Source: a virus
Reading direction: 5' to 3' (one strand)
DNA length: 64,000 bases
IMG/VR virus record: IMGVR_UViG_3300044941_000276
Coordinates: 41,642-105,641 of that record
Shown: positions 39,716-58,280 of the stretch, piece after piece
Layout of the letters: every line of letters begins with the position of its first letter
Position numbering within the stretch: the first letter of the stretch is position 1
Notes under the pieces: generated by a model
The model's database searches: none
What the model was told of the DNA's origin: nothing
What the model saw: only the letters and a program-made list of their open reading frames with translations
Program-made: the position numbers and the translations under genes

Positions 39716-40006
39716 ATGAAATCTTACGAATTTGAATCCGGTGCTGAGTTCACCGGAGGCTCGCTCTTAGGGCGTATTGAAGTACAAGTTGAAACCTCGA
39801 CGAAAGGGTCAGGTCTTAACAAAGGCAAGTGGCGCAATACTATAAAGCCGGTTGAAGTAATCCTCACAAATAAGAAGACTGGGAAGAAAACGGCGTCTAT
39901 CCGTGAGGCGTTCAATTCAAAGACTAAATTGGACGCCGGCACCTACACAGTAGGTGTCTATGAAGCGGACATCAACAACAAATTGACAGCCTACCTGGCT
40001 TTGTAA
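39716..40006 (+). CDS. first early gene, hypothetical (96 aa)
   Basis: ATG 39716 with A/T-rich leader (MKSYEFESG...). Confidence 0.7.
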   Translation: MKSYEFESGAEFTGGSLLGRIEVQVETSTKGSGLNKGKWRNTIKPVEVILTNKKTGKKTASIREAFNSKTKLDAGTYTVGVYEADINNKLTAYLAL

Positions 40007-40357
40007 GTCGGGTAGGTCCCCCTTCGGGGGTAAGTGTGCCTCAATCATTAGCCACATGATGAGAGGCACAACCATACACTCGCCACACGGTGTATGGTAA
40101 GTAGCAAGTGTGGGCATATTTTCATTGTCTTGGTTGAAAATATGCTTCCCCAGATATCTGGGAGTGGGTTTTTTTAAAAAATCCAAGACATCCACCCCTC
40201 AGTCCGAGTGAGGGAGAGTGTGACCAAGTTGTTGTAACCATCCGACAACTTGGCACACGAGGTGGATTATGTAGGCAAATTGAAGACGCCTAATCTCGGA
40301 ACGGGGTAAGCCGAAAACTCATAAAAAGAGTAGGCGTAAATTGAAAACGACTAGTTT
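40007..40357 (+). ncRNA. structured non-coding segment (hairpins, pseudoknots, AAUUGAA loops)
   Basis: Back-to-back inverted repeats, e.g. CCCC-TTCG-GGGG, ACCATACAC/GTGTATGGT, GCATATTTTCA/TGAAAATATGC. Confidence 0.55.
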
Positions 40358-40615
40358 ATGACCAGGACTATCATATCGGAGGTGAACACAGCTCACCTTC
40401 ATATGATCAAAGAAAGATTTGATCATGAGTACCCGCTACCAAACGGAGGGTACGTACTATATTCGTTTTGCTCGTCGACATCAAAAGATATTGAAGCTTT
40501 AATCATTGTAGTAAAGAAAGAAAAGCTCATCAAATCGAGAGCTTTTCTTTTCACGGGGGAGGTTCTCCAATTGGAAAATTTCCTCGCTAAACATGGGATT
40601 GAAATATCCCTTTAG
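40358..40615 (+). CDS. early hypothetical protein
   Basis: ORF track; ATG follows an AAUUGAAA hairpin. Confidence 0.55.
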   Translation: MTRTIISEVNTAHLHMIKERFDHEYPLPNGGYVLYSFCSSTSKDIEALIIVVKKEKLIKSRAFLFTGEVLQLENFLAKHGIEISL

Positions 40616-40619
40616 CGAG

Positions 40620-41265
40620 GTCTCCCCTTTTTTCCCCTTGCTGCCATTTAATGGGTAAAACGGCAAGGGGGTTTTAAAGCCCTGTCAGGCGAAATTGAAG
40701 ATGACAGGGCATCTTTCTCCCTACCTTGGGTAAGTAGGGAGATATTTTATACCCATCGTCGAGAGAGGATTCGACCCGTGTAAGCGAAGTGCTCTGGCCG
40801 GTCGCAGCACGGGTTGTTATCCATTTTTTACTCCTCACCTTGAGCAAGTGAGGGTGGGTGTTTGCTCACGTCCCTCAATCGGACTGCAAATGTAACGTCG
40901 TTATTTGATGGTTACTCAAGCCGGTTCGATGAGGGACACTTATTTGACTAAGACGGGGTCAGATAAGTAAAAATTAAACCGTCTCTGCCGAAAAGCTCGC
41001 GACGCGTTTTGCTCGCTGAGCATTGGCAGATTCCCCGAAAGGGGAAATTAGCGCCCCTTAAGTGGGGCTTTAGCTTGTCCGTACCATACCGGACTTAAAC
41101 ATAGTATGGTAAGCCTTTGTACTAGGCTTTGATTGAGGGGTAAAACCCAAGAGAAGGTACAAAGACCGTCACCTAGCATCGCTTTTTATGGCTTTAATCA
41201 TGCTATAGGTAGAATCAGAAGACGGCGCGCACAGGGTTCTTTATGAGCTTCTTACCTGTGCAAAA
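40620..41265 (+). ncRNA. structured non-coding segment upstream of tRNA-Arg
   Basis: More than 10 consecutive stems, two H-type pseudoknots, no ORF. Confidence 0.55.
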
Positions 41266-41271
41266 TAAGTT

Positions 41272-41345
41272 ACTCCCATAGCTCAACTGGATAGAGCAAC
41301 TGCCTTCTAAGCAGTAGGTTGCAAGTTCGAATCTTGCTAGGGGTA
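41272..41345 (+). tRNA. tRNA-Arg (UCU)
   Basis: Cloverleaf; anticodon arm ACTGC-CTTCTAA-GCAGT; T arm GCAAG-TTCGAAT-CTTGC; one C-A mismatch in the acceptor; no encoded CCA. Confidence 0.92.
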
Positions 41346-41387
41346 CGATTAAAAAACCTAATCACAATTAAAAAAACAAAAAACGTT

Positions 41388-41804
41388 ATGAACAAGAACA
41401 CATTCGTTTTTGTGATCACCATGTTGGTGGTCACAATCTTTTTGGCTGCCGCTGCGGTAGCCAAGCCCCGCCCGAAATGGGTGCGGGTTAGCCACTCTAT
41501 CTTATCAACCGTTGACCGTATCGACCGAGATACGGTTGCAATTAAGCTCACCTTCGTCCGCTTTGACGGCGAAGGTCGTCCTACTATTGGTCAAAATTTG
41601 GGTCACTTTATTATAGAAGTGGCCTTCACAGTCGACCGCTCAGAGGCGGTACGCATTTTAAACGGCGGGCAGTTGTCCGCCAACGGGCATGTCCTCGCCC
41701 GTATAAGCGAGGGCACCAAAATAATTCGTGACCCTGAGGGTCGCGAAATCCGCCGTATGAAAGCGGCGGATATCTGCAAGATCCTTTATGGGTCTTCAGA
41801 GTAA
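41388..41804 (+). CDS. early secreted/membrane protein
   Basis: Likely start MNKNTFVFVITMLVVTIFLAAAAVA (signal peptide). Confidence 0.65.
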   Translation: MNKNTFVFVITMLVVTIFLAAAAVAKPRPKWVRVSHSILSTVDRIDRDTVAIKLTFVRFDGEGRPTIGQNLGHFIIEVAFTVDRSEAVRILNGGQLSANGHVLARISEGTKIIRDPEGREIRRMKAADICKILYGSSE

Positions 41805-41809
41805 AAAAG

Positions 41810-41843
41810 ACAAGGCGGTTTCTATGAAATCGCCTTGTTTTTT
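41810..41843 (+). terminator. rho-independent terminator
   Basis: ACAAGGCGGTTTC-TAT-GAAATCGCCTTGT-TTTTT. Confidence 0.85.
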
Positions 41844-41844
41844 A

Positions 41845-42941
41845 TCAGGGTGAGAATCCCTGACAAGCCTGTGGGGCTCATGTCTTGCTAAGGCATTGTT
41901 GCACTTGTATAGGGGAAGAGTAGTAAAGTCGAGTAATATTGCTGCGTTAGGTAATACTATAAGCATTATGAAAGAGGAATATCTATTTTGACTATATGGC
42001 GCAATGTCTGATCAAGCATTAGTGCGGACTCAAAAATCAGGCAGTGGTACAGCCTTAATCTGTACAAATCTTTGTTTATCAAAGATTAACAAGGAAATAA
42101 CCAATACCTTGTCCTAACTATGGGTAAAATAGTAGTCGTCCTTTTTTTAAATGTATTTTTTAAACCTGTACTATCGTCCCCGGATAGTACATCAATAGTG
42201 GCACAAGGAGGCCGCGAGGGGCGAAGACATATGGTCTTCAATGTTTAACAAATCGTGGTATTGAGCTAGACCACGTTGAAATAGTTAGCTCGCCTGTCCA
42301 CAAACACGGAGGTGTGACAGGTTCATGGGAGAAGAAGAGGCCGTCAATATTAAACGACGTGTCTCTAAAGAGAAAAGGGTTTCCGTGTTGCGACTGAATC
42401 TCATGTCGCACAAGTTAACGACTTGACCCGAGATATATGTAGCTCTATACATTAACAATAACTACGTCAACAATAGATGTAGGGAGTGGTGTATATCTAT
42501 ATATGTACGATTTGAGACTGGACAACTCAAATCAATATGTACAATGTCCAATAGCCGTACGCCACAACGGCTATGATATCTTAAGATATAGGTCGATATT
42601 AAAAGACCTTATCTTAGATATAATTATTTTAGTCAAGGGCATGAATCGGGGTTGACATCCCGATAAGGGTATGGAGTAAAGACCATACTTGAAAACGTCA
42701 GCGTCCGATAATCAAATCAACAATAGATTTGAGGAGGACGTTAAGGCGAATTGAAGTCGCCGTCATTTTTCTATCCTGTACGGATAGTTGTCAAAGTCGA
42801 CCATGGGACTAAGACGTAAAAACAGAAAGAAGCCTAAGTCGTGCGATGCTTCGCATCGATATGGTGAGCGCTCATGGTTATAGTAGGAGACTACGACAAT
42901 GTCGTATGTCGTTATTACTACTGAATAAGTCCGAAAGGACT
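41845..42941 (+). ncRNA. ~1.1-kb ORF-free structured region (candidate large ncRNA or ncRNA array)
   Basis: Dense hairpins, long-range stems (GCCTG/CAGGC, GACCATGGG/CTCATGGTT), pseudoknots; ends at a hammerhead. Confidence 0.5.
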
Positions 42942-42997
42942 CTGTCGTCTATGTGCGTGGCTGTGCATAGGCCTGATGAGGGGTTAACCCGAAACAG
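42942..42997 (+). ncRNA. type III hammerhead ribozyme
   Basis: CUG-UC | stem I 42947-56/42963-72 | CUGAUGA 42973-79 | stem II GGG..CCC | GAAA 42991-94 | CAG; GUC cleavage after 42946. Confidence 0.85.
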
Positions 42998-43087
42998 TAT
43001 TGCCCGCGTAAAATAAGACTGCGTTAAGGTCTTGTGAGTGATGCGTGCCCACTCAGAACGGCATTAATTTTTTATCCAAAATTGAAG

Positions 43088-44212
43088 ATGGATAGAAAAT
43101 TAATTAACGCCCTAGAATGCGAAAAGTATATACAGAAAAAACTTTTCGCGTTCAACGCCGGCAAGACGCTGGCTAGGGCGTGGAACGCGGGGGAAAATTG
43201 TCTTCTTACCGGACCTGGTGGGTACGGTAAGACGGACGGAGCTGCTTTGTTCTTTGAGTATCTCAAAGAACAAGGGGCTTTGTCTGACGAACGTCCATAC
43301 GTATTGGCGTTCGGACAGGGCATGACTGAGGAAAGGTTATTCGCTGGGTTGGATATCAAACGCTTTCAGAATGAAGGCGAATTGGTGTACAACCTGAAGA
43401 AGGCCTTCGTATCCTTCGAATATGTAATATTCGAGGAAATGTTCGACGCATTTCCTGGGGTATTGCTTATTCTGAAGGATGTTCTTCAGTCTAAGAGCGT
43501 ACGGTTAGGCGACACCGTATTTCCCTTGCGAACTAAATTTATAGTCGCCTGTACCAACCGTAGCAATGAGGAAGTCGCTACGGATAGAAGTACATGGGCT
43601 CTTTTAGAAAGATTCGTCTTTCAAAAAGAGGTAACCTGGACTTCGTGGGAAAAGTCCGACTACCTCTCGGCTTTCGAGGCAGCCACAGGCCAGAAAGCTG
43701 ATTCCGTAATGGAGGCTGTGGCAAGAATAGCTGCTGCCAGCAGCAAAGGTGAGATGAAGATCTCGCCTCGTACTGCTGGTAAAGGTCTTAAGGCAGTAAA
43801 ACAAAACGGTAACGACATTACCGTTTTGGAAGACATTCTCGGCTTCGATAAGAAGTCGGTAAGAGAAGTCTTCACTGCTATGGAAGGCATAGCAGCAGAC
43901 AAGGCTCAACGTGACCACGTAGCTGCGGTGGTCGCGTTATGTAAGCAGACAGCAGCTACTTCTTCGAATTCCGCCATTAAATTGGCGGTTGCCGCTAAAC
44001 GAGTTCACGTAGAACTCGAAAAACTTAGTGGAATTCAACGTCGTGATGCGAACGTTGAATTGTTCGAGGAAAGCATCATTGTCATAGAGAATCTGAGGGA
44101 GTCTCTATGGCAAAGAGCCAAGTCCCTTATTAACAAGCCACCAGTTGGCAGCTTGGCAGAGTTTATACAAAACTCTAGCACAAGCTCATTCGACTGGAGC
44201 TTGTTGAGATAA
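43088..44212 (+). CDS. MoxR/RavA-like AAA+ ATPase
   Basis: Walker A GPGGYGKT, Walker B VIFEE, ACTN, ALLERF, ISPR; likely start MDRK at 43088. Confidence 0.85.
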   Translation: MDRKLINALECEKYIQKKLFAFNAGKTLARAWNAGENCLLTGPGGYGKTDGAALFFEYLKEQGALSDERPYVLAFGQGMTEERLFAGLDIKRFQNEGELVYNLKKAFVSFEYVIFEEMFDAFPGVLLILKDVLQSKSVRLGDTVFPLRTKFIVACTNRSNEEVATDRSTWALLERFVFQKEVTWTSWEKSDYLSAFEAATGQKADSVMEAVARIAAASSKGEMKISPRTAGKGLKAVKQNGNDITVLEDILGFDKKSVREVFTAMEGIAADKAQRDHVAAVVALCKQTAATSSNSAIKLAVAAKRVHVELEKLSGIQRRDANVELFEESIIVIENLRESLWQRAKSLINKPPVGSLAEFIQNSSTSSFDWSLLR

Positions 44213-44290
44213 TCGTTAACCCAATCTCTTGGGTTTGACTTGCATATAAGGTTAATCGTAAAAGCAAGGTAGTTATAATTTTATGGGGTT

Positions 44291-45520
44291 ATGAAAAAAA
44301 GAACCATACCCCACCATCTGTACGTTGAGCCTACGCGGCGAGACGTACAAGAAAGATTTAAGGAGTTAGGTTTTGATAAAACCTACTCTTATGATCTCGT
44401 ACGGGATATTGCTAATGCGATGTCTCACGTACAGAATGGTGGGAAAGTCACTGACGCAATGACCAACGTCAGTGATTGGGTTCTTCCTTCTGACTATAAG
44501 TCAGAGAGGGAATATCAAAGAGCACTCTCGTATCACGAGAATGTTCAAAGATTTATTTCTTCTCTTGACTTTGACAAGTTCAGTGGCAATACTCCGCTTG
44601 CAAAAGCGGCAAGTGTTGTAGCTGCACTGTCTAGTCAAGAAGGGGGACAAGGCGAGGAGGGTGATGGTCAACCCTTGCCAATCTTCCGAGGTTCGTCAGA
44701 ATCTATGGAAGAAAAGGCTAAAAAGTTGGAAGAGGCAGTTGATCAAACTGTCGAGGCCAATAAAAGCCTTGCGAGGTACATCATCAATCCTGATGAGGCC
44801 TCCCCAGAGGTGGCTCTCGCGACCTTGAACAGCGAGAATCGGGACCTCTTAGCCAAGTTAGCGCTACTTGGTGACAGGGGTAAGATACGTTCACAGCGCA
44901 CTTCTCCCACAAACAAACTCACTCAAATGAGTGAGTATTCACAGGTGGGTCGTGTGAATAATATGAGTAGTATGTTTCTCCCAACTTTCGGGTATAAATT
45001 TGCGACCAAGCAATTGGTTGTGAAAGAACCCGAACAATCAACGAGACAAACCCTTGTCTTATTGATTGACAACAGCGGTTCTATGGACGAGACCGACAAA
45101 TTAAGTTGGGTCAAAGCCATAGTAGTTAACAGATTAGACGCTGTTAGTAAGGGAGAAGCTGAGTTGTATATCGGTTGGTTTGAATGTTCTCTTGATGAAG
45201 AGAACATTGTTAAAATTGCCAACAAAAAAGAAGCCATAGCTTTTTTACAAGAAGGCTTCTTGGGTAATTTTAACGGGGGAAAAACTGATATACAACGGGC
45301 CATTGAACAAGTTTGCGAGGGAATCAAACTTGGAAGGCTCGGTAATTATTCCCTCAACGGAGTTAAGCCTCAAATCGTTGTAATGAACGATGGGCAAGAC
45401 TTTGTTGATAGCAATTATAAACCCAGTGTTGTGACTCACGGGTTTATCTTAGGGCGTGACAATGACGGAATGAAGTCAATGATCGCCAATTGCGGAGGTC
45501 ACTATGAGAGATTTTTATAA
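44291..45520 (+). CDS. vWA-domain protein (ViaA-like partner)
   Basis: MIDAS LIDNSGSM, GG.TDI, MNDG. Confidence 0.85.
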   Translation: MKKRTIPHHLYVEPTRRDVQERFKELGFDKTYSYDLVRDIANAMSHVQNGGKVTDAMTNVSDWVLPSDYKSEREYQRALSYHENVQRFISSLDFDKFSGNTPLAKAASVVAALSSQEGGQGEEGDGQPLPIFRGSSESMEEKAKKLEEAVDQTVEANKSLARYIINPDEASPEVALATLNSENRDLLAKLALLGDRGKIRSQRTSPTNKLTQMSEYSQVGRVNNMSSMFLPTFGYKFATKQLVVKEPEQSTRQTLVLLIDNSGSMDETDKLSWVKAIVVNRLDAVSKGEAELYIGWFECSLDEENIVKIANKKEAIAFLQEGFLGNFNGGKTDIQRAIEQVCEGIKLGRLGNYSLNGVKPQIVVMNDGQDFVDSNYKPSVVTHGFILGRDNDGMKSMIANCGGHYERFL

Positions 45521-45727: not shown

Positions 45728-45973
45728 ATGGATAACTTTTTTCTTGAGTTATTTATTATAACTCAACAAGAAAGAATTCAATCCGAGGGATTATTTTCTA
45801 TCCTTTGCCGAATTGAAGAAGGCAAGGATATGAAGAAAATCCCTTTCCATTCTCAAAAAGAGATGGAAGATTTCCTCTGGTTAAACAGAGGGAATTATCT
45901 ATTCATCTCTTTGGAAGAGGCTGGGCTATTAGTGTCCACCTCTCCATTTGAGAATGGATTGGGAGTGAATTGA
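45728..45973 (+). CDS. small early hypothetical protein (start 45728 or 45830)
   Basis: ORF track; internal ATG at the foot of an AAUUGAAG hairpin. Confidence 0.45.
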   Translation: MDNFFLELFIITQQERIQSEGLFSILCRIEEGKDMKKIPFHSQKEMEDFLWLNRGNYLFISLEEAGLLVSTSPFENGLGVN

Positions 45974-46157
45974 TTGGGGACCACCTGCACTAATCATCGG
46001 TGGGATATAAATAGAGGATTTTTTCTAACCATTCCATTTTGTAATATTACAAATAAAGGTTGAATCTGCGACAGGCATAGGGATATGTGCGAGTAATAGC
46101 AGAAGAGGAAGCCGAAAAGCTAAGTGAGTAGGCAATAACTATCCAAAAAATTGAAGA

Positions 46158-46475
46158 ATGGATATGATCAAGTTTTTATTTCCTCAGGTAGCCAAGTCTA
46201 CCTTTGGAAAAAAGATGTTTAATCGCATAGCTCCTATCGTAGAAAGACTATGCGATGAAACATCGATGATCGCAATGCCCTCAATCGCGATGTTTCTTAC
46301 TTACCATCCCGGAGCTTCTGCTCCGCAGCAGATGGTATTTAATTATCTTGCAGAAGTCGCACTGCAAGGCAACTGGAGAGTATTTGTTGCGACGTATGGG
46401 GAACTCATTTCTCCTTCTGACCCATTGGCTGTATTGGGTCAAGACGGAAGAAAACAGTTCTTCCGACCAATGTGA
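46158..46475 (+). CDS. early hypothetical protein
   Basis: ORF track; ATG inside an AAUUGAAG hairpin. Confidence 0.65.
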   Translation: MDMIKFLFPQVAKSTFGKKMFNRIAPIVERLCDETSMIAMPSIAMFLTYHPGASAPQQMVFNYLAEVALQGNWRVFVATYGELISPSDPLAVLGQDGRKQFFRPM

Positions 46476-47570: not shown

Positions 47571-47687
47571 TTGTTATTATAACAGCAAAGGTTTATTTGC
47601 GAACTCTTAACTCAATAAGTTAAACTAATTGACTTATAAAGAGTTACAAGTTCGTCTTGTAGAGCTCACCATCAAAAATCAGATTTT

Positions 47688-47828
47688 AGAGGTGGCGCTG
47701 GATGCGCCTTGGATGCTGGCAGGCGCGCGACTGTGCAACATCGGTACTGGCAAGAAGCTGAACGACGGTTCAGTGGATGTTAGCAAAGGGCTGCTCCCTT
47801 GAGGCCGGTTCGATTCCGGCCACCTCTA
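47688..47828 (+). ncRNA. 141-nt tRNA-like RNA (acceptor and T arm, multi-branched core)
   Basis: AGAGGTG/CACCTCT-A; GCCGG-TTCGATT-CCGGC; no canonical anticodon arm. Confidence 0.7.
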
Positions 47829-47842
47829 CTTAAACAAACAAA

Positions 47843-47916
47843 GGGTCCATAGCTCAGCCGGTTAGAGCATCTGACTCATAATCAGGGGGTCGCAAGTTCG
47901 AGCCCTGCTGGACCCA
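47843..47916 (+). tRNA. tRNA with CAU anticodon (probably Ile2/lysidine; Met possible)
   Basis: GGGTCCA/TGGACCC; TCTGA-CTCATAA-TCAGG; TTCGAG T loop. Confidence 0.9.
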
Positions 47917-47957
47917 CAATCGTTCATTCACAAAAACCGCGACTGAGGTATCAGCAA

Positions 47958-48203
47958 ATGGATGAAAGTTCCTTTACAATTATGTATATGATAACGGTAG
48001 AAGTTTATGATTGTGAAAAAGGCACTAATCGCTATGCGATAAAAGCTGCCAACTTCGAAGAAGCTGTTGAAAGATATGAAGATATCAAATCACGCATCAC
48101 CGTAAACTGGACTCGCCATCCAGCAATCACCGAAGAAATTAAACACCTCGATTGTACATACGATTCTTTTAATGAAGGTTGTATAATCATGTCTCGTGTT
48201 TAA
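47958..48203 (+). CDS. small hypothetical protein
   Basis: ORF track. Confidence 0.55.
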   Translation: MDESSFTIMYMITVEVYDCEKGTNRYAIKAANFEEAVERYEDIKSRITVNWTRHPAITEEIKHLDCTYDSFNEGCIIMSRV

Positions 48204-48211
48204 AAATATTA

Positions 48212-48314
48212 CCATCTATCGTCTAAGTAAGACGATTTGACAATCGCTTATAACAAAAATTGAAGATTATAAGCAATTGTTAAATAAATACAGGTTCGTA
48301 TCCTGTTAGATGGT
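48212..48314 (+). ncRNA. tRNA scaffold whose anticodon arm is replaced by an 18-bp AAUUGAAGA hairpin
   Basis: CCATCTA/TAGATGG; D arm GTCT-AAGTA-AGAC; long arm 48235-48285; T arm ACAGG-TTCGTAT-CCTGT. Confidence 0.75.
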
Positions 48315-48433
48315 CAATTAATCACCTGAGTTTAAGAGATTCACCCTAAGGTAACTGACGTTAAACTTTTTGTCAGGAGAATAAGGTTATGACATAAGTC
48401 ATAGGTGATTTAAGATTTTAAATTATTTATCGT

Positions 48434-48655
48434 ATGAAAGTTTACGTTCATAGGTACCAATTTGAAGGAGTATTAATCGAATTAATATTGCCTCATAACA
48501 AGCCTATTGAAGTTGGTGATGCGATTTCAATTGAAGAAATTGAAATTGAACCAATAAGAATAGAGCACGCAATCTTAGATGCGGTTGTCGTATATTTTTC
48601 TTATAGAAGCAAAGAAAGAAGTGTAATCGTTGACAAATCAAATCTTGAAAAGTAA
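48434..48655 (+). CDS. hypothetical protein
   Basis: ORF track. Confidence 0.55.
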   Translation: MKVYVHRYQFEGVLIELILPHNKPIEVGDAISIEEIEIEPIRIEHAILDAVVVYFSYRSKERSVIVDKSNLEK

Positions 48656-55753: not shown

Positions 55754-56920
55754 ATGACAAAGATAAATCTCACAGAACTACAAAATTATTTTAATGAACG
55801 CATGTATGGTTTTGATGCCAAAATATTTGGTATTGCTTGGAATAGTAATCAAAATGTATTACTGACAGGTCCAGGTGGATATGGTAAAACATACAGCGCT
55901 CAATTATTTTATGATTTTTTAGTACATAAAGGTATATTTCCAGAAGGTAGTAAACCTTTCGTTCAATCATTAAATCCCGATACTACCACTGAAAAGATCT
56001 TTGGCGGTACTAACATTAAAGAATTTACCGAAAACGGAGCTATGGTTTATAATTGCCATAATAGCTTTGCTAACGCGCCTTTTGTTATCTTTGAGGAGTT
56101 TCTTGACGCACCATCATCTTCTTTGATGGCTCTTAAAGATGCTCTTACTTCTGGATATGTCAGAGATGGTCTTTATACCTATGAGGTAAAAACAAAGATG
56201 ATAATTGCTTGTACTAATCTTTCAGCAGATGAATTTGCGGAAGATGATGCTACACAAGCTTTATTAGAGCGTTTTAGATTTCAAATGGTTGTACGATGGA
56301 ACAGTCATACAGAAGACGATTATATAAAGTCCTATGAAATAGCAACTGGTAATAAAGGAGACAATATCATTGTTAAAGCAGTAGCCAATGCGGCAGCTGC
56401 TTCTTACGGTGTAGGTGGAGATCGTCCAGTAAGTCCTCGTACTTATATGACAGCGGTTGAAGCTTGTAAAGGATGTGATAAAGATATAGATCCTTTGACT
56501 CCGTTGTATTATATGGATTATCCTGGTGGGTTCAAACCAGCAGCTGTTAAAACTGCTAGCGCTAATCTTGCAGCTTTAAGAAAAGTTATGGAAGATCTTG
56601 AAAGATTAGCCAATTATCAAAGCATGTGGGATACTTATAAAGAGAACTTTAAGACTACGGCTAAAAATATTAACGAAGAAAACTTAATCAAGTTATATAA
56701 TATGGCCGCTAAACTTAAAGAAACTTTAAGCGAGGTCTCGCTTATTAAAGTTACAGATAACGCTTTACCTAACTATCGTAAACTTCTTAGTAGCTATAAA
56801 AGTTTATATACTAGTTGGTATGAGTTTATCGCAAATAAAGTCAAAGAAGACCCATCAATTACTAACGAAAATCTTTTAAAATTATCCAATAGTAGTGTTG
56901 AAAGATATGAATTCAATTGA
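55754..56920 (+). CDS. MoxR/RavA-like AAA+ ATPase (paralog 2)
   Basis: GPGGYGKT; VIFEE; IACTN; ALLERF; VSPR. Confidence 0.85.
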   Translation: MTKINLTELQNYFNERMYGFDAKIFGIAWNSNQNVLLTGPGGYGKTYSAQLFYDFLVHKGIFPEGSKPFVQSLNPDTTTEKIFGGTNIKEFTENGAMVYNCHNSFANAPFVIFEEFLDAPSSSLMALKDALTSGYVRDGLYTYEVKTKMIIACTNLSADEFAEDDATQALLERFRFQMVVRWNSHTEDDYIKSYEIATGNKGDNIIVKAVANAAAASYGVGGDRPVSPRTYMTAVEACKGCDKDIDPLTPLYYMDYPGGFKPAAVKTASANLAALRKVMEDLERLANYQSMWDTYKENFKTTAKNINEENLIKLYNMAAKLKETLSEVSLIKVTDNALPNYRKLLSSYKSLYTSWYEFIANKVKEDPSITNENLLKLSNSSVERYEFN

Positions 56921-58280
56921 GCCTAGAGTGATTAAACACAGCTCATATGATTATCTTTCCGATAGCTTAATCAACGCCCGCTTTGATGGAGTGGGCGTTG
57001 TTGAAGCTAAAAGAGAGAAAATGAGCTACGATCTAATAAGAGATCTTGCATATTATCACAGTTACTTTTTCATGGGGGAAGACCCTAAAAAAGCATTGAT
57101 AGATGCACATACTGCTTATAAAAGAGAAGACTTCAATAGCGATGAAGAGTATTGGGAGCGTATAGCTTATCACAATAATATTATCAATTTTATAAGAGAT
57201 ATAAATATCAACATATTTACAGGTAATACTCCAGCCCAAAAAGCGGCATCGGTAATGTTGTCTATTTTAGCAATGGATAATGAAAAAGATAATAGTGAAA
57301 AAAATGGCGCTATGATGGACTTCTTTAAACCTACCGATGAAGAAATTGATAAAGCTAAAGAAGGAAAGCTAAACAATGGCAGAGAAATCCCTACAGAAAC
57401 AAAGAAGAATAATAAAGAAAGTGTCAATGGTAGTGTTGCTGGTGGACAAGGAAGGGCTGATAGGGTTACTTTACTTGAAGACTATGTTCACACTACAATC
57501 AATTATGCTATCGATAGTCCTATTGCAAGTGAATATTTTAATACCACTACTACTAATGGAGAATTGGCTTTATTTAATATGACTAATGAACAAAAAATAT
57601 TAATAAACCAACTTTCCATTGTTTCTTCTATGGGAAAACTCAATACTAGAAAAAAGAGACCTGGTAAATGCTATGGTTTAATGAATGACATAGGTGATAT
57701 AGTACACGCTTCTCCACGATCTCAGTTATTATCTCCTATACTTCCTATAAAATTAATAGAGAAGACTCTTACCACTAGTAAATCAAAACAAGGAGGAAAG
57801 CAAATACTTATATATCTTATTGATGATAGTGGATCAATGAGCGTTATAGAAAAAGTACGTTGGGTTAAAACTTTGATGATTAATCGTCTTGATGCTGTAG
57901 CAAAGAATAAAGCAGAATTATATGTAGCTTGGTATATAGAAGATATTATACCTAAGTCAATTATTCATATTAAGAATAAAGCACAAGCAATAGAATTTTC
58001 TAAAAAACAATTCTTTGGCAATTTTAACGGAGGTGGTACTAATATAGCAAGAGCTATTGAAAGTACTGTTAATAGCATCAAAAGTAATAACTTTTACGGT
58101 AACCCTATTAAAGGTGTAAATCCTCAAATAGTTTTGATTAACGATGGTCAAGATTTTATAGATAAAAATTACGAAGTAGGTAAGGGAATTACACTTAATA
58201 GTTTTATTTTAGGGGGTGATAATAAAAACTTAGAAATTGTTACACGAAGATCTGGAGGGACTTATGTTAGATTCTTATAG
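56907..58280 (+). CDS. vWA-domain protein (paralog 2)
   Basis: LIDDSGSM; GGGTNI; INDG; NRLDAV shared with 44291. Confidence 0.85.
   Translation: MNSIEPRVIKHSSYDYLSDSLINARFDGVGVVEAKREKMSYDLIRDLAYYHSYFFMGEDPKKALIDAHTAYKREDFNSDEEYWERIAYHNNIINFIRDININIFTGNTPAQKAASVMLSILAMDNEKDNSEKNGAMMDFFKPTDEEIDKAKEGKLNNGREIPTETKKNNKESVNGSVAGGQGRADRVTLLEDYVHTTINYAIDSPIASEYFNTTTTNGELALFNMTNEQKILINQLSIVSSMGKLNTRKKRPGKCYGLMNDIGDIVHASPRSQLLSPILPIKLIEKTLTTSKSKQGGKQILIYLIDDSGSMSVIEKVRWVKTLMINRLDAVAKNKAELYVAWYIEDIIPKSIIHIKNKAQAIEFSKKQFFGNFNGGGTNIARAIESTVNSIKSNNFYGNPIKGVNPQIVLINDGQDFIDKNYEVGKGITLNSFILGGDNKNLEIVTRRSGGTYVRFL

What the first reader, a model, noticed from the sequence alone, without database searches (positions are those of the whole stretch)
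48212..48314. tRNA scaffold displaying the AAUUGAAGA hairpin in place of an anticodon arm
Seen: acceptor CCATCTA/TAGATGG, D arm GTCT-AAGTA-AGAC and T arm ACAGG-TTCGTAT-CCTGT in tRNA spacing. The anticodon arm is instead 10 bp + mismatch + 8 bp, capped by CAAAAATTGAAGA. It cannot decode, and its loop is the motif found at seven other sites. Inference: a natural version of the engineered tRNA-scaffold trick, in which host RNase P and 3' trimming release a stable, abundant decoy RNA that titrates whatever binds the motif. This favours an RNA-level role for the motif.
Basis: partly seen in the sequence, partly recalled or inferred. Interest (0 to 1): 0.9.

Follow-up and report, generated by a model that had tools for sequence, protein, structure and literature searches.

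The report
Anticodon-less tRNA look-alike displaying phage loop motif
An uncultured crAss-like phage of Bacteroidota encodes a tRNA-shaped RNA that cannot read codons and instead shows, on a very long arm, the same nine-base loop that caps hairpins over the start codons of its early genes. This gives a testable lead on the long-unexplained tRNA look-alikes of phages, but its job is not yet shown.

Summary
Window 48212-48314 (+) folds as described: a 7-bp acceptor stem, a D arm, a T arm, and a 19-position arm (10 bp, one C.A mismatch, 8 bp) capped by CAAAAAUUGAAGA (dG -33.5, z -6.8).

ARAGORN and Rfam do not call it a tRNA, and removing an insert does not restore a normal anticodon loop. It therefore almost certainly cannot decode.

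AAUUGAAGA is a real, strand-specific signal. There are 10 copies against 1.9 expected, and 6 exact copies plus 2 variants cap hairpins with unrelated stems in the early region. Two of these hairpins hold the start codons of moxR and orf46158. Every wobble or wobble-creating change pairs only on the + strand, which favours an RNA-level role.

New here: the same loop, in a hairpin, rides on two unrelated phage tRNA frames (L091/L132, L318/L336). A reversed-motif control scan found no tRNA-like context.

The decoy mechanism, RNase P processing and stability are all untested. No orthologue was found outside a 96%-identical sister contig.

Verdict: a real, non-decoding tRNA-like RNA carrying a portable loop module. 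It is a new variant of the known but unexplained phage tRNA-like stable RNAs. This scan has noted similar tRNA scaffolds in other genomes.

The parts
48212..48314 (+). tRNA-shaped, non-decoding RNA gene (acceptor, D arm, elongated arm, T arm, discriminator U; no encoded CCA)
   Evidence: fold, z -6.8; not called as a tRNA; pseudo-type call only with relaxed settings.
48235..48285 (+). Elongated 'anticodon' arm: 10 bp, a C.A mismatch, then 8 bp, capped by the 13-nt loop CAAAAAUUGAAGA (48254-66)
48290..48306 (+). T arm ACAGG-UUCGUAU-CCUGU
48221..48233 (+). D arm GUCU-AAGUA-AGAC. The sister contig has C48223>U, which turns a C-G pair into U.G.
40272..40292 (+). Motif hairpin UAGGC-AAAUUGAAGAC-GCCUA, directly 5' of DUF805b
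40331..40353 (+). Variant AAAUUGAAA in a weak hairpin. The 3' arm is not kept in the sister contig.
40679..40710 (+). Motif hairpin with a 9-bp stem. The 9-mer and stem are kept in the sister contig while the 5 nt before the motif change at 4 positions.
42745..42761 (+). Variant hairpin GGCGA-AUUGAAG-UCGCC
43063..43104 (+). 16-bp motif hairpin. The moxR start codon (ATG 43088) spans the junction between the loop and the 3' stem.
45799..45830 (+). Motif hairpin downstream of the vWA gene
   Evidence: A relative (L168) has a motif hairpin 13 nt after its vWA stop codon.
46140..46164 (+). Motif hairpin. ATG 46158 of the 105-aa ORF follows the 9-mer directly. DUF805b-like leader lies at 46102-34.
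47687..47829 (+). Second tRNA-shaped RNA (acceptor and T arm, with a ~85-nt branched insert), 13 nt 5' of tRNA-Met
47843..47917 (+). Genuine tRNA-Met(CAU), 295 nt upstream of the element
48315..48433 (+). Non-coding stretch between the element and ORF 48434-48655. Identical in the sister contig up to 48422. The predicted fold is weak (z -1.8).

Best explanation
This is a real gene for a small, non-decoding, tRNA-shaped RNA. It lies in the early, + strand transcription unit of a crAss-like phage whose host is a member of Bacteroidota. The tRNA body (acceptor stem, T arm, reduced D arm) serves as a carrier. The body probably lets the host's tRNA-processing enzymes cut the RNA out of the polycistronic early transcript (inferred). 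The elongated arm holds out the loop AAUUGAAGA. In this phage the same loop caps hairpins that enclose the start codons of early genes (moxR, orf46158), and it also caps several hairpins in the non-coding RNA island at 40-43 kb. The loop is therefore most likely the docking site of one trans-acting factor, either a protein or an RNase, phage or host encoded. On the mRNAs that factor would control translation or stability. The tRNA-shaped RNA would present the same site without any message, and so would compete for the factor as a decoy or buffer. Shown: the fold, the inability to decode, the shared loop, the start-codon overlap, the RNA strand bias, and the recurrence of the loop on other phage tRNA frames. 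Inferred: processing, stability, the existence of the factor and the direction of regulation.
For: The cloverleaf has z -6.8. A covariance model of it finds nothing comparable in 572 kb of related phage DNA except the sister copy and a true tRNA. The loop 9-mer occurs 10 times against 1.9 expected, all on the sense strand. Six of the 10 exact copies lie in loops of 5-16 bp stems, against 13 of 90 one-mismatch sites under the same permissive test, and the stems are unrelated. ATG follows the 9-mer at offset -1, 0 or +1 at 40693, 43080 and 46149, and in relative L168. Two of these open real ORFs: MoxR AAA+ (Pfam) and a 105-aa ORF. In the 81-84% identical stretch of the sister contig, the 9-mer and stem of hairpin 40679 are intact while 4 of the 5 preceding loop bases differ. 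Relatives with 50% TerL identity (L005) and 59% vWA identity (L168) have motif hairpins with new stems. The one G.U and one U.G pair in the stems, and the two sister-contig changes that create wobble pairs, pair only on the + strand. The same loop sits in a hairpin on unrelated phage tRNA frames. L091/L132 is a canonical tRNA body with a ~30-nt insert in the anticodon loop. L318/L336 is a tRNA-Trp(CCA)-like gene with encoded CCA and a 40-nt extra arm. The two share the 14-mer GUGAAAUUGAAGAU. A reversed-motif control scan gave 33 hits, none of them tRNA-like. The element sits in a small RNA gene cluster with tRNA-Met and a second tRNA-like RNA. The phage's true tRNAs also lack an encoded CCA. 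In the crAss-like phage phi14:2, long early intergenic regions are transcribed more highly than most genes (bioRxiv 10.1101/2020.03.07.982082, read).
Against: There is no expression, processing or binding evidence of any kind. No orthologue of the element was found beyond one 96%-identical contig. Selection on the cloverleaf therefore rests on a single wobble-preserving change. The low divergence of 48206-48422 is not exceptional, because 10% of 217-nt windows are equally conserved. The elbow is non-canonical: there is no G18G19, and position 58 is U. One decoy copy set against about seven other sites is a poor sponge unless it is much more abundant. A 19-bp helix may be cut by RNase III. No candidate RNA-binding protein was found nearby. 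The cross-phage recurrence rests on a search pattern that itself required a T loop, on small numbers (2 clean and 2 looser cases against 0), and on a single control scan.
Confidence: 0.4

Rival explanations
1. It is a cis-acting processing signal. The tRNA-like fold only recruits RNase P/Z to cut the early polycistronic RNA between ORF 47958-48203 and ORF 48434-48655, as in tRNA punctuation. Its hairpin is one more copy of the regulatory hairpin, acting in cis on the flanking genes. The excised piece has no role of its own.
For: The element starts 9 nt after the stop codon of the upstream ORF and lies 120 nt before the next ATG. No + strand terminator-like site was found between 47600 and 49500. 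The downstream 108 nt are also unchanged in the sister contig. This phage uses several RNA-cutting devices in the same region, for example the Hatchet ribozyme at 41841-42042.
Against: It does not explain why the arm carries the exact loop module, nor why that module also rides on tRNA frames of unrelated phages. The true tRNA-Met 295 nt upstream already supplies a processing site.
Confidence: 0.2
2. It is a decayed tRNA gene. A tRNA gene acquired a hairpin insert or duplication in its anticodon arm and now drifts. The motif in the loop reflects local sequence habit, not function.
For: Rfam tRNA gives 13 bits and ARAGORN gives only a pseudo-type call. The D and T loops are degenerate. No orthologue was found in more distant relatives. 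The conservation is not exceptional.
Against: All 16 pairs of the acceptor, D and T stems and 18 of the 19 positions of the long arm are intact in a 31% GC genome (z -6.8). The only substitution keeps pairing. The loop holds the exact 9-mer that is over-represented five-fold. Two other phage lineages show the same combination.
Confidence: 0.15
3. It is a tRNA carrying a small removable insert (a mini-intron or mobile hairpin module). The AAUUGAAGA hairpin would mark an insert that an unknown endonuclease and ligase remove to give a working tRNA.
For: ARAGORN models the analogues as intron-bearing tRNAs (L091/L132 i(31,30); L318/L336 i(39,27)). Phage tRNAs do carry short presence/absence inserts. 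L100 tRNA-Arg(UCU) has a precise 26-nt insert between nt 36 and 37 that the L122 allele lacks, and this insert also extends the anticodon stem.
Against: No excision restores a canonical loop here. The best L100-like parse gives ACAAUGU, which has C33 in place of the near-universal U33 and an AAU anticodon that bacteria do not use (sequence). No RtcB was found in the record. The motif hairpins elsewhere in the phage are not in tRNAs.
Confidence: 0.1
4. It is an anti-defence decoy. The loops mimic the substrate or antitoxin of a host endoribonuclease, for example a ToxN-like enzyme cutting at AA/AU or an anticodon nuclease. UUGAAGA resembles an anticodon loop of the form U33-GAA-R37. The tRNA body would make the mimic a better bait.
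For: The loop contains AAAU and a 7-mer of anticodon-loop form lying flush with the 3' stem in 3 of the 6 exact sites. The variant at 40339 changes only the 'position 37' purine from G to A. The early RNA island is dense in structured RNA. Phage RNA mimics of ToxI are known, from established knowledge of phage PhiTE and ToxIN.
Against: In L005 and three window sites, 1-3 nt separate the motif from the stem. No defence or nuclease partner was identified. The overlap with start codons points to gene regulation rather than bait.
Confidence: 0.1
5. It is a DNA-level signal. The hairpins would extrude in DNA and serve as promoters for the virion RNA polymerase (as in phage N4) or as an origin, and the tRNA shape would be incidental.
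For: The crAss-like virion RNAP gp66 prefers single-stranded templates (10.1101/2020.03.07.982082). The hairpins cluster at the start of the early block.
Against: The stem imperfections pair only on the + strand as G.U. The start codons lie inside the hairpins, so a transcript started after the hairpin would lack them. For phi14:2 early transcripts the same paper reports no common upstream motif. A DNA signal gives no reason for acceptor, D and T arms.
Confidence: 0.05

Closest known systems
Phage T4 RNAC/RNAD (species 1 and 2 RNAs) and phage T5 RNA1-3: small stable tRNA-like RNAs in phage tRNA clusters
   Same: Phage-encoded. Lies beside true tRNA genes. Has a tRNA-like acceptor and T arm. 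Has no usable anticodon. Function unknown.
   Different: Here the replaced arm carries a short loop that recurs on mRNA hairpins of the same phage and on tRNA frames of other phages, which gives a concrete hypothesis. The phage is crAss-like and infects Bacteroidota, not an enterobacterial myovirus or siphovirus.
Engineered tRNA scaffolds for RNA expression (Ponchon and Dardel 2007)
   Same: The anticodon arm is replaced by a hairpin of interest, while the acceptor, D and T arms are kept.
   Different: That is a laboratory design with a canonical elbow and proven processing. Here the elbow is degenerate and processing is unproven.
YrlA / Y RNAs with Ro60 (Rfam RF02553)
   Same: Non-coding RNA with a tRNA-like module that serves as a protein handle. 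Known in phages.
   Different: In YrlA the RNA ends lie in the Ro-binding stem and the acceptor-like stem is closed by a loop, which is the reverse of the topology here. No Rfam hit falls on the element. No TROVE gene is present. The neighbouring vWA protein shows no Ro60 fold.
CsrB/RsmZ-type sponge RNAs with CsrA
   Same: The same short loop motif sits on mRNA hairpins that overlap translation starts and on non-coding RNAs that could compete for the binder.
   Different: The motif is different (AAUUGAAGA, not GGA). No binder is known. The host phylum is not known for using CsrA. There is one loop per tRNA-like RNA, not many.
E. coli thrS operator (tRNA-Thr anticodon-arm mimic bound by ThrRS)
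   Same: A hairpin with an anticodon-loop-like sequence at a translation start could act as an operator.
   Different: The loops here are 10-14 nt, not 7. No synthetase link was tested. The resemblance rests on a 7-mer only.

Membership tests
Canonical tRNA (Rfam RF00005) | Score at or above the family threshold, or a call by a tRNA finder | tested here: not met
   13 bits against a gathering score of 29. Not called by ARAGORN at default settings.
Canonical tRNA (Rfam RF00005) | 7-bp acceptor stem, 4-bp D stem and 5-bp T stem in tRNA spacing | tested here: met
Canonical tRNA (Rfam RF00005) | 5-bp anticodon stem with a 7-nt loop (U33, R37) | tested here: not met
   The arm has 19 positions and a 13-nt loop.
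Canonical tRNA (Rfam RF00005) | Elbow signature: G18G19 in the D loop, and a T loop UUCRA with A58 | tested here: not met
   The D loop is AAGUA and the T loop is UUCGUAU, with U at position 58.
Intron-containing tRNA | Removing the insert restores a canonical anticodon stem-loop | tested here: not met
   ARAGORN's relaxed model is poor. The best parse gives ACAAUGU with C33 (sequence). Compare L100 against L122, where removing the 26-nt insert restores CUUCUAA.
YrlA / Y RNA (RF02553) | Match to the family model, and a Ro60/TROVE gene in the genome | tested here: not met
   No YrlA match on the element at E up to 10. TROVE is absent from the 105.6-kb record, which is 71% complete.
tmRNA | tRNA-like domain plus a tag reading frame | tested here: not met
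   ARAGORN finds no tmRNA. No Rfam tmRNA hit falls on 48212-48314.
Phage tRNA-like stable RNAs (T4 RNAC/RNAD, T5 RNA1-3) | Encoded among phage tRNA genes, with tRNA-like ends and no anticodon | tested here: met
   tRNA-Met lies 295 nt upstream and a second tRNA-like RNA lies at 47687-47829. Fold.
Phage tRNA-like stable RNAs (T4 RNAC/RNAD, T5 RNA1-3) | Accumulates as a discrete stable RNA processed by RNase P | not testable with these tools
Sponge or decoy RNA for a loop-binding regulator (CsrB-like logic) | The same motif occurs on target mRNAs at translation starts and on the non-coding RNA | tested here: met
Sponge or decoy RNA for a loop-binding regulator (CsrB-like logic) | An identified binder, and competition shown | not testable with these tools
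   No candidate emerged from Pfam, PHROGs, the protein atlas or the fold search.

The most novel reading that the evidence does not exclude
The AAUUGAAGA hairpin is a portable RNA 'handle' recognised by a conserved, still unknown factor. Unrelated phages graft it onto tRNA bodies: in place of the anticodon arm, inside the anticodon loop, or as an extra arm on a decoding tRNA-Trp. This phage also places it over the start codons of early genes. That would define a new class of tRNA-borne regulatory or anti-defence module, and would give a first mechanistic lead on the non-decoding tRNA look-alikes of phages.
Probability: 0.3. Interest if true: 0.8.

Novelty: new variant of a known kind. Interest (0 to 1): 0.6.

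Why it matters
Phages have been known for about 50 years to encode small stable tRNA-like RNAs with no anticodon, such as T4 RNAC/RNAD and the T5 RNAs, and their function is still unknown.

Here the part that replaces the anticodon is not arbitrary. It is a nine-base loop that the same phage places over the start codons of early genes, and that other phages attach to their tRNAs. That turns 'function unknown' into specific experiments: pull down the loop binder, mutate the loop, and supply the RNA in trans.

The finding also adds a candidate layer of post-transcriptional control to crAss-like phages. Their early non-coding regions are highly transcribed but unexplained.

Tried and rejected
1. 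Orthologues. An exact T-arm/acceptor scan of viral contigs found only the sister contig. Covariance model R1 found nothing credible over 29 related loci or over 5 whole related records. Loci found through TerL and vWA alignments in viral and metagenome contigs gave few relatives.

3. Mimicry of the 16S rRNA 5' end. AAAUUGAAGA equals the first 10 nt of E. coli 16S rRNA (from memory). The host, however, is a member of Bacteroidota, and flavobacterial 16S genes read ACGAUGAAGAG or ACAAUGAAGAG. This idea is not supported.

4. The motif as the 3' part of DUF805b. A composite pattern hits 105 sites, mostly in Bacteroidota. But AATTGAA was forced by the pattern, its spacing varies from 0 to 25 nt, and GA rarely follows. 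The result supports the host phylum only.

5. Ro60/Y-RNA pairing. No TROVE gene was found. The fold search on the vWA protein model matches only VWA domains, and no Ro60 is among the listed hits.

6. K-turn or K-loop reading. It fits hairpin 40679 only, so it was rejected as a general rule.

7. A lambda boxB-like GAAGA pentaloop. The closing pairs do not fit.

8. Kissing through the palindromic AAUU, or pairing with an antisense partner. The pairing is too weak, and no complement of the motif exists on the transcribed strands.

9. Conservation as evidence of selection. There is 1 difference in 217 nt, but 10% of windows are as conserved, so it was not used as support.

10. Neighbouring small proteins. 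They have no family and no lead.

11. Literature. The motif string returns only unrelated siRNA papers. DUF805b is not discussed in the papers held.

Full report
**Setting.** The window is bases 41642-105641 of a 105.6-kb IMG/VR virus record that CheckV estimates to be 71% complete. GC content is about 31%. Genes lie on the - strand up to about 40 kb and on the + strand after that.

The large terminase and portal match phage families. The terminase is 27-30% identical to proteins on many ~97-kb contigs and 35-84% identical to a handful of uncultured relatives. I read this as a divergent crAss-like phage.

No gene has a Shine-Dalgarno sequence, and the upstream regions are A/U-rich. The Rfam motif DUF805b occurs twice. 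A composite DUF805b pattern hits 105 places in prokaryote genomes, nearly all in Bacteroidota, mostly a few bases before an ATG. The host is therefore most likely a member of Bacteroidota.

**The observation.**
- RNAfold gives the cloverleaf as both MFE and centroid, at -33.5 kcal/mol against -13.7 +/- 2.9 for shuffles, z -6.8.
- The 'anticodon' arm is 10 bp (one G.U), a C.A mismatch and 8 bp, closed by the 13-nt loop CAAAAAUUGAAGA.
- ARAGORN and Rfam at normal thresholds call only tRNA-Arg(UCU) at 41272-41346 and tRNA-Met(CAU) at 47843-47917.
- The element scores 13 bits on the tRNA model.
- It gets only a pseudo-type 'Tyr(ata) with intron' call when ARAGORN is relaxed.
- The D loop (AAGUA) lacks G18G19, and the T loop (UUCGUAU) has U where A58 should be.

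With a 19-position arm and a 13-nt loop it cannot span the distance a decoding tRNA must span. That follows from established tRNA geometry and is an inference, not a test.

I tried to read it as an intron-bearing tRNA. The best parse is modelled on a real case found in passing. In that case, L100 tRNA-Arg carries a precise 26-nt insert between nt 36 and 37 that its near-identical L122 allele lacks. Applied here, the parse leaves the loop ACAAUGU, with C33 and an AAU anticodon. That is not a credible tRNA.

**The motif.** AATTGAAGA occurs 10 times against 1.9 expected, always on the sense strand of the local genes. Six exact copies (40278, 40693, 43080, 45811, 46149, 48258) and two variants (40339, 42749) lie in hairpin loops whose stems share no sequence.
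- Under the same permissive hairpin test, only 13 of the 90 one-mismatch sites in the genome score. Their stems are 5-7 bp, against 5-16 bp for the exact copies.
- The 9-mer lies at the 3' side of the loop, flush with or 1 nt from the 3' arm.
- ATG follows at offset -1 or 0 at 40693, 43080 and 46149. The latter two open MoxR (AAA+, Pfam) and a 105-aa ORF.
- The long arm of the element holds one G.U pair and hairpin 43063-104 holds one U.G pair. Two sister-contig changes create wobble pairs: 48223 C>U in the D stem, and A>G in the 3' arm of hairpin 43063-104.
- All four would be C.A mismatches on the other strand. The structure therefore belongs to the + strand, that is, to RNA.
- One sister-contig change breaks a pair, a G>A in hairpin 45799.

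**Relatives.** A second contig, IMGVR_UViG_3300044940_000357, is 96-97% identical over most of the region and 81-84% identical over 40300-41840. All eight loops keep the 9-mer. In hairpin 40679 the stem and the 9-mer are intact while four of the five loop bases before the 9-mer differ.

Within 48206-48422 there is a single difference. However, 10% of 217-nt windows in a 12.8-kb comparison are equally conserved, so I do not count this as selection.

A contig with 50% TerL identity (L005) has CAACGGCA-AAAUUGAAGACUA-UGCCGUUG at its very end, in the expected orientation. A fragment with 59% vWA identity (L168) has GGUCGACUA-AAAUUGAAGAG-UAGUCGACC 13 nt after the vWA stop codon, and also AAAAUUGAAGAcAUG further on. 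More distant relatives (TerL 31-38%; records of 130 kb and 153 kb) show no enrichment.

The tRNA-like element itself was found only in the sister contig.

**The same loop on other phage tRNA frames.** I scanned viral contigs for the 10-mer AAATTGAAGA followed within 16-40 nt by a T-loop signature. The total number of hits was near chance, but several are tRNA genes with abnormal arms.
- **L091/L132.** A 100-nt gene with a fully canonical acceptor, D and T arm. A ~30-nt insert in the anticodon loop folds as AGCGGU-GAAAUUGAAG-AUCGCU.
- **L318/L336.** A 112-nt tRNA-Trp(CCA)-like gene with G73 and an encoded CCA, an intact anticodon arm, and a 40-nt extra arm holding GUGAA-AUUGAAGA-UUUAC.
- These two share the 14-mer GUGAAAUUGAAGAU, although their tRNA bodies are unrelated.
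- **L100/L122 (170 nt) and L090 (130 nt).** These tRNA-likes carry the motif outside a terminal loop.
- The same scan with the motif reversed gave 33 hits and no tRNA-like context.

The numbers are small, the pattern itself required a T loop, and there was only one control scan. I therefore treat this as suggestive. It is still the strongest new argument that a tRNA body is used to carry this loop.

**Surroundings.** The element starts 9 nt after the stop codon of an 81-aa ORF and ends 120 nt before a 73-aa ORF. Neither ORF has a family. No + strand terminator-like site lies nearby.

A second tRNA-shaped RNA, with an acceptor, a T arm and a ~85-nt branched insert, lies at 47687-47829, just before tRNA-Met. 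This is therefore a small RNA gene cluster.

The true tRNA-Met also lacks an encoded CCA, and its 3' trailer begins CAAU, like that of the element. In the crAss-like phage phi14:2, long early intergenic regions are transcribed at higher levels than most genes, and early transcripts share no detected promoter motif (bioRxiv 10.1101/2020.03.07.982082).

**Mechanism.** The most economical reading is that AAUUGAAGA in a hairpin loop is the docking site of one trans-acting factor.
- On moxR and orf46158 the hairpin encloses the start codon. In a host that initiates on unstructured A-rich leaders, this should make initiation depend on whatever binds or opens the hairpin.
- The non-coding island at 40-43 kb and the tRNA-like RNA present the same site without a message.
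- A tRNA body would provide processing from the polycistron and protection of the ends.
- This matches the logic of CsrB-type sponges and of engineered tRNA scaffolds. It is an analogy in how the thing may work, not a claim of family membership.

I put 0.4 on this reading. The rivals are a purely cis processing element (0.2), a decayed tRNA (0.15), a removable insert (0.1), a decoy for a host RNase or anticodon nuclease (0.1) and a DNA-level hairpin (0.05).

**Leads tested and dropped.**
- A Ro60/Y-RNA pairing was suggested by earlier notes of this scan on other genomes. There is no TROVE gene, the fold search on the vWA protein model matches only VWA domains with no Ro60 among the listed hits, and YrlA does not match the element.
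- Mimicry of the 16S 5' end was not supported.
- A K-turn, a boxB-like pentaloop and AAUU loop kissing were rejected on the sequences.

**Verdict.** The inference that it cannot decode and that the motif acts at the RNA level is supported. The decoy mechanism is plausible and now has cross-phage support for its 'scaffold' half, but nothing about expression, processing, stability or binding has been shown.

The class, phage tRNA-like RNAs without an anticodon, is known. Examples are T4 RNAC/RNAD and the T5 RNAs, and this scan has noted many such scaffolds in other genomes. What I found described nowhere is the link to a loop shared with translation-start hairpins and with other phages' tRNAs. 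I rate it a new variant of a known kind, with interest 0.6.

Noticed in passing
window 47687-47829 (+): A second tRNA-shaped RNA: an 8-bp acceptor, a D-like hairpin, a canonical T arm (GGCCGG-UUCGAUU-CCGGCC) and a ~85-nt branched insert where the anticodon arm should be. It gives a weak Rfam tmRNA hit (19.9 bits) and lies 13 nt 5' of tRNA-Met.
   Followed up: partly
window 40000-43060 (+): About 3 kb at 44-46% GC in a 31% GC genome with few credible ORFs. It is dense in hairpins (many with GUAA loops) and holds a Hatchet ribozyme (41841-42042, 70 bits), tRNA-Arg(UCU), DUF805b and four motif hairpins. It may be one or more large structured early RNAs.
   Followed up: partly
window 40300-41840 against L003 5823-7833: The sister contig is only 81-84% identical here, against 96-97% elsewhere, and carries a ~600-bp insertion after the first motif hairpin. 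This looks like a hot spot of divergence inside the RNA island.
   Followed up: no
window 40301-40336 and 46102-46134 (+): Two DUF805b (RF02914) copies, at 36.1 and 32.1 bits, each next to a motif hairpin. In prokaryote genomes the DUF805b core is widespread in Bacteroidota, a few nt upstream of ATGs that open signal-peptide-like ORFs (105 hits for a composite pattern). It looks like a general Bacteroidota leader element that the phage also uses.
   Followed up: partly
L100:6602-6703 (-) against L122:2705-2780 (+): A phage tRNA-Arg(UCU) with a precise 26-nt insert between nt 36 and 37. The insert pairs with the anticodon and extends the stem. The otherwise near-identical allele in a related contig lacks it. 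This is a presence/absence mini-insert in a phage tRNA anticodon loop.
   Followed up: partly
L336:240-351 (+), L318:9584-9695 (-), L132:5873-5972 (+): Phage tRNA genes from ~47% GC contigs that carry the AAAUUGAAGA loop in a hairpin. In L318/L336 it is an extra arm on a tRNA-Trp(CCA)-like gene. In L132 it is an insert in the anticodon loop. They share the 14-mer GUGAAAUUGAAGAU.
   Followed up: partly
window 43034-45520 and 55754-58280 (+): Two MoxR-like AAA+ / vWA gene pairs in one phage. The vWA paralogues are 31% identical. The first pair is bracketed by motif hairpins, one at its start codon and one after its stop codon.
   Followed up: partly
window 48315-48422 (+): Non-coding stretch after the element, identical in the sister contig. 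The predicted multibranch fold, closed by AUCACCU/AGGUGAU, is not significant (z -1.8), and there is no Rfam match.
   Followed up: partly
L088:7010-7097 (-): In an unrelated tRNA-rich phage contig, AAUUGAAGAAUGGAUA follows directly after the encoded CCA of a tRNA-Gln. It matches 16 nt of the window's hairpin at 46149 (AAUUGAAGAAUGGAUA). Its meaning is unknown.
   Followed up: no
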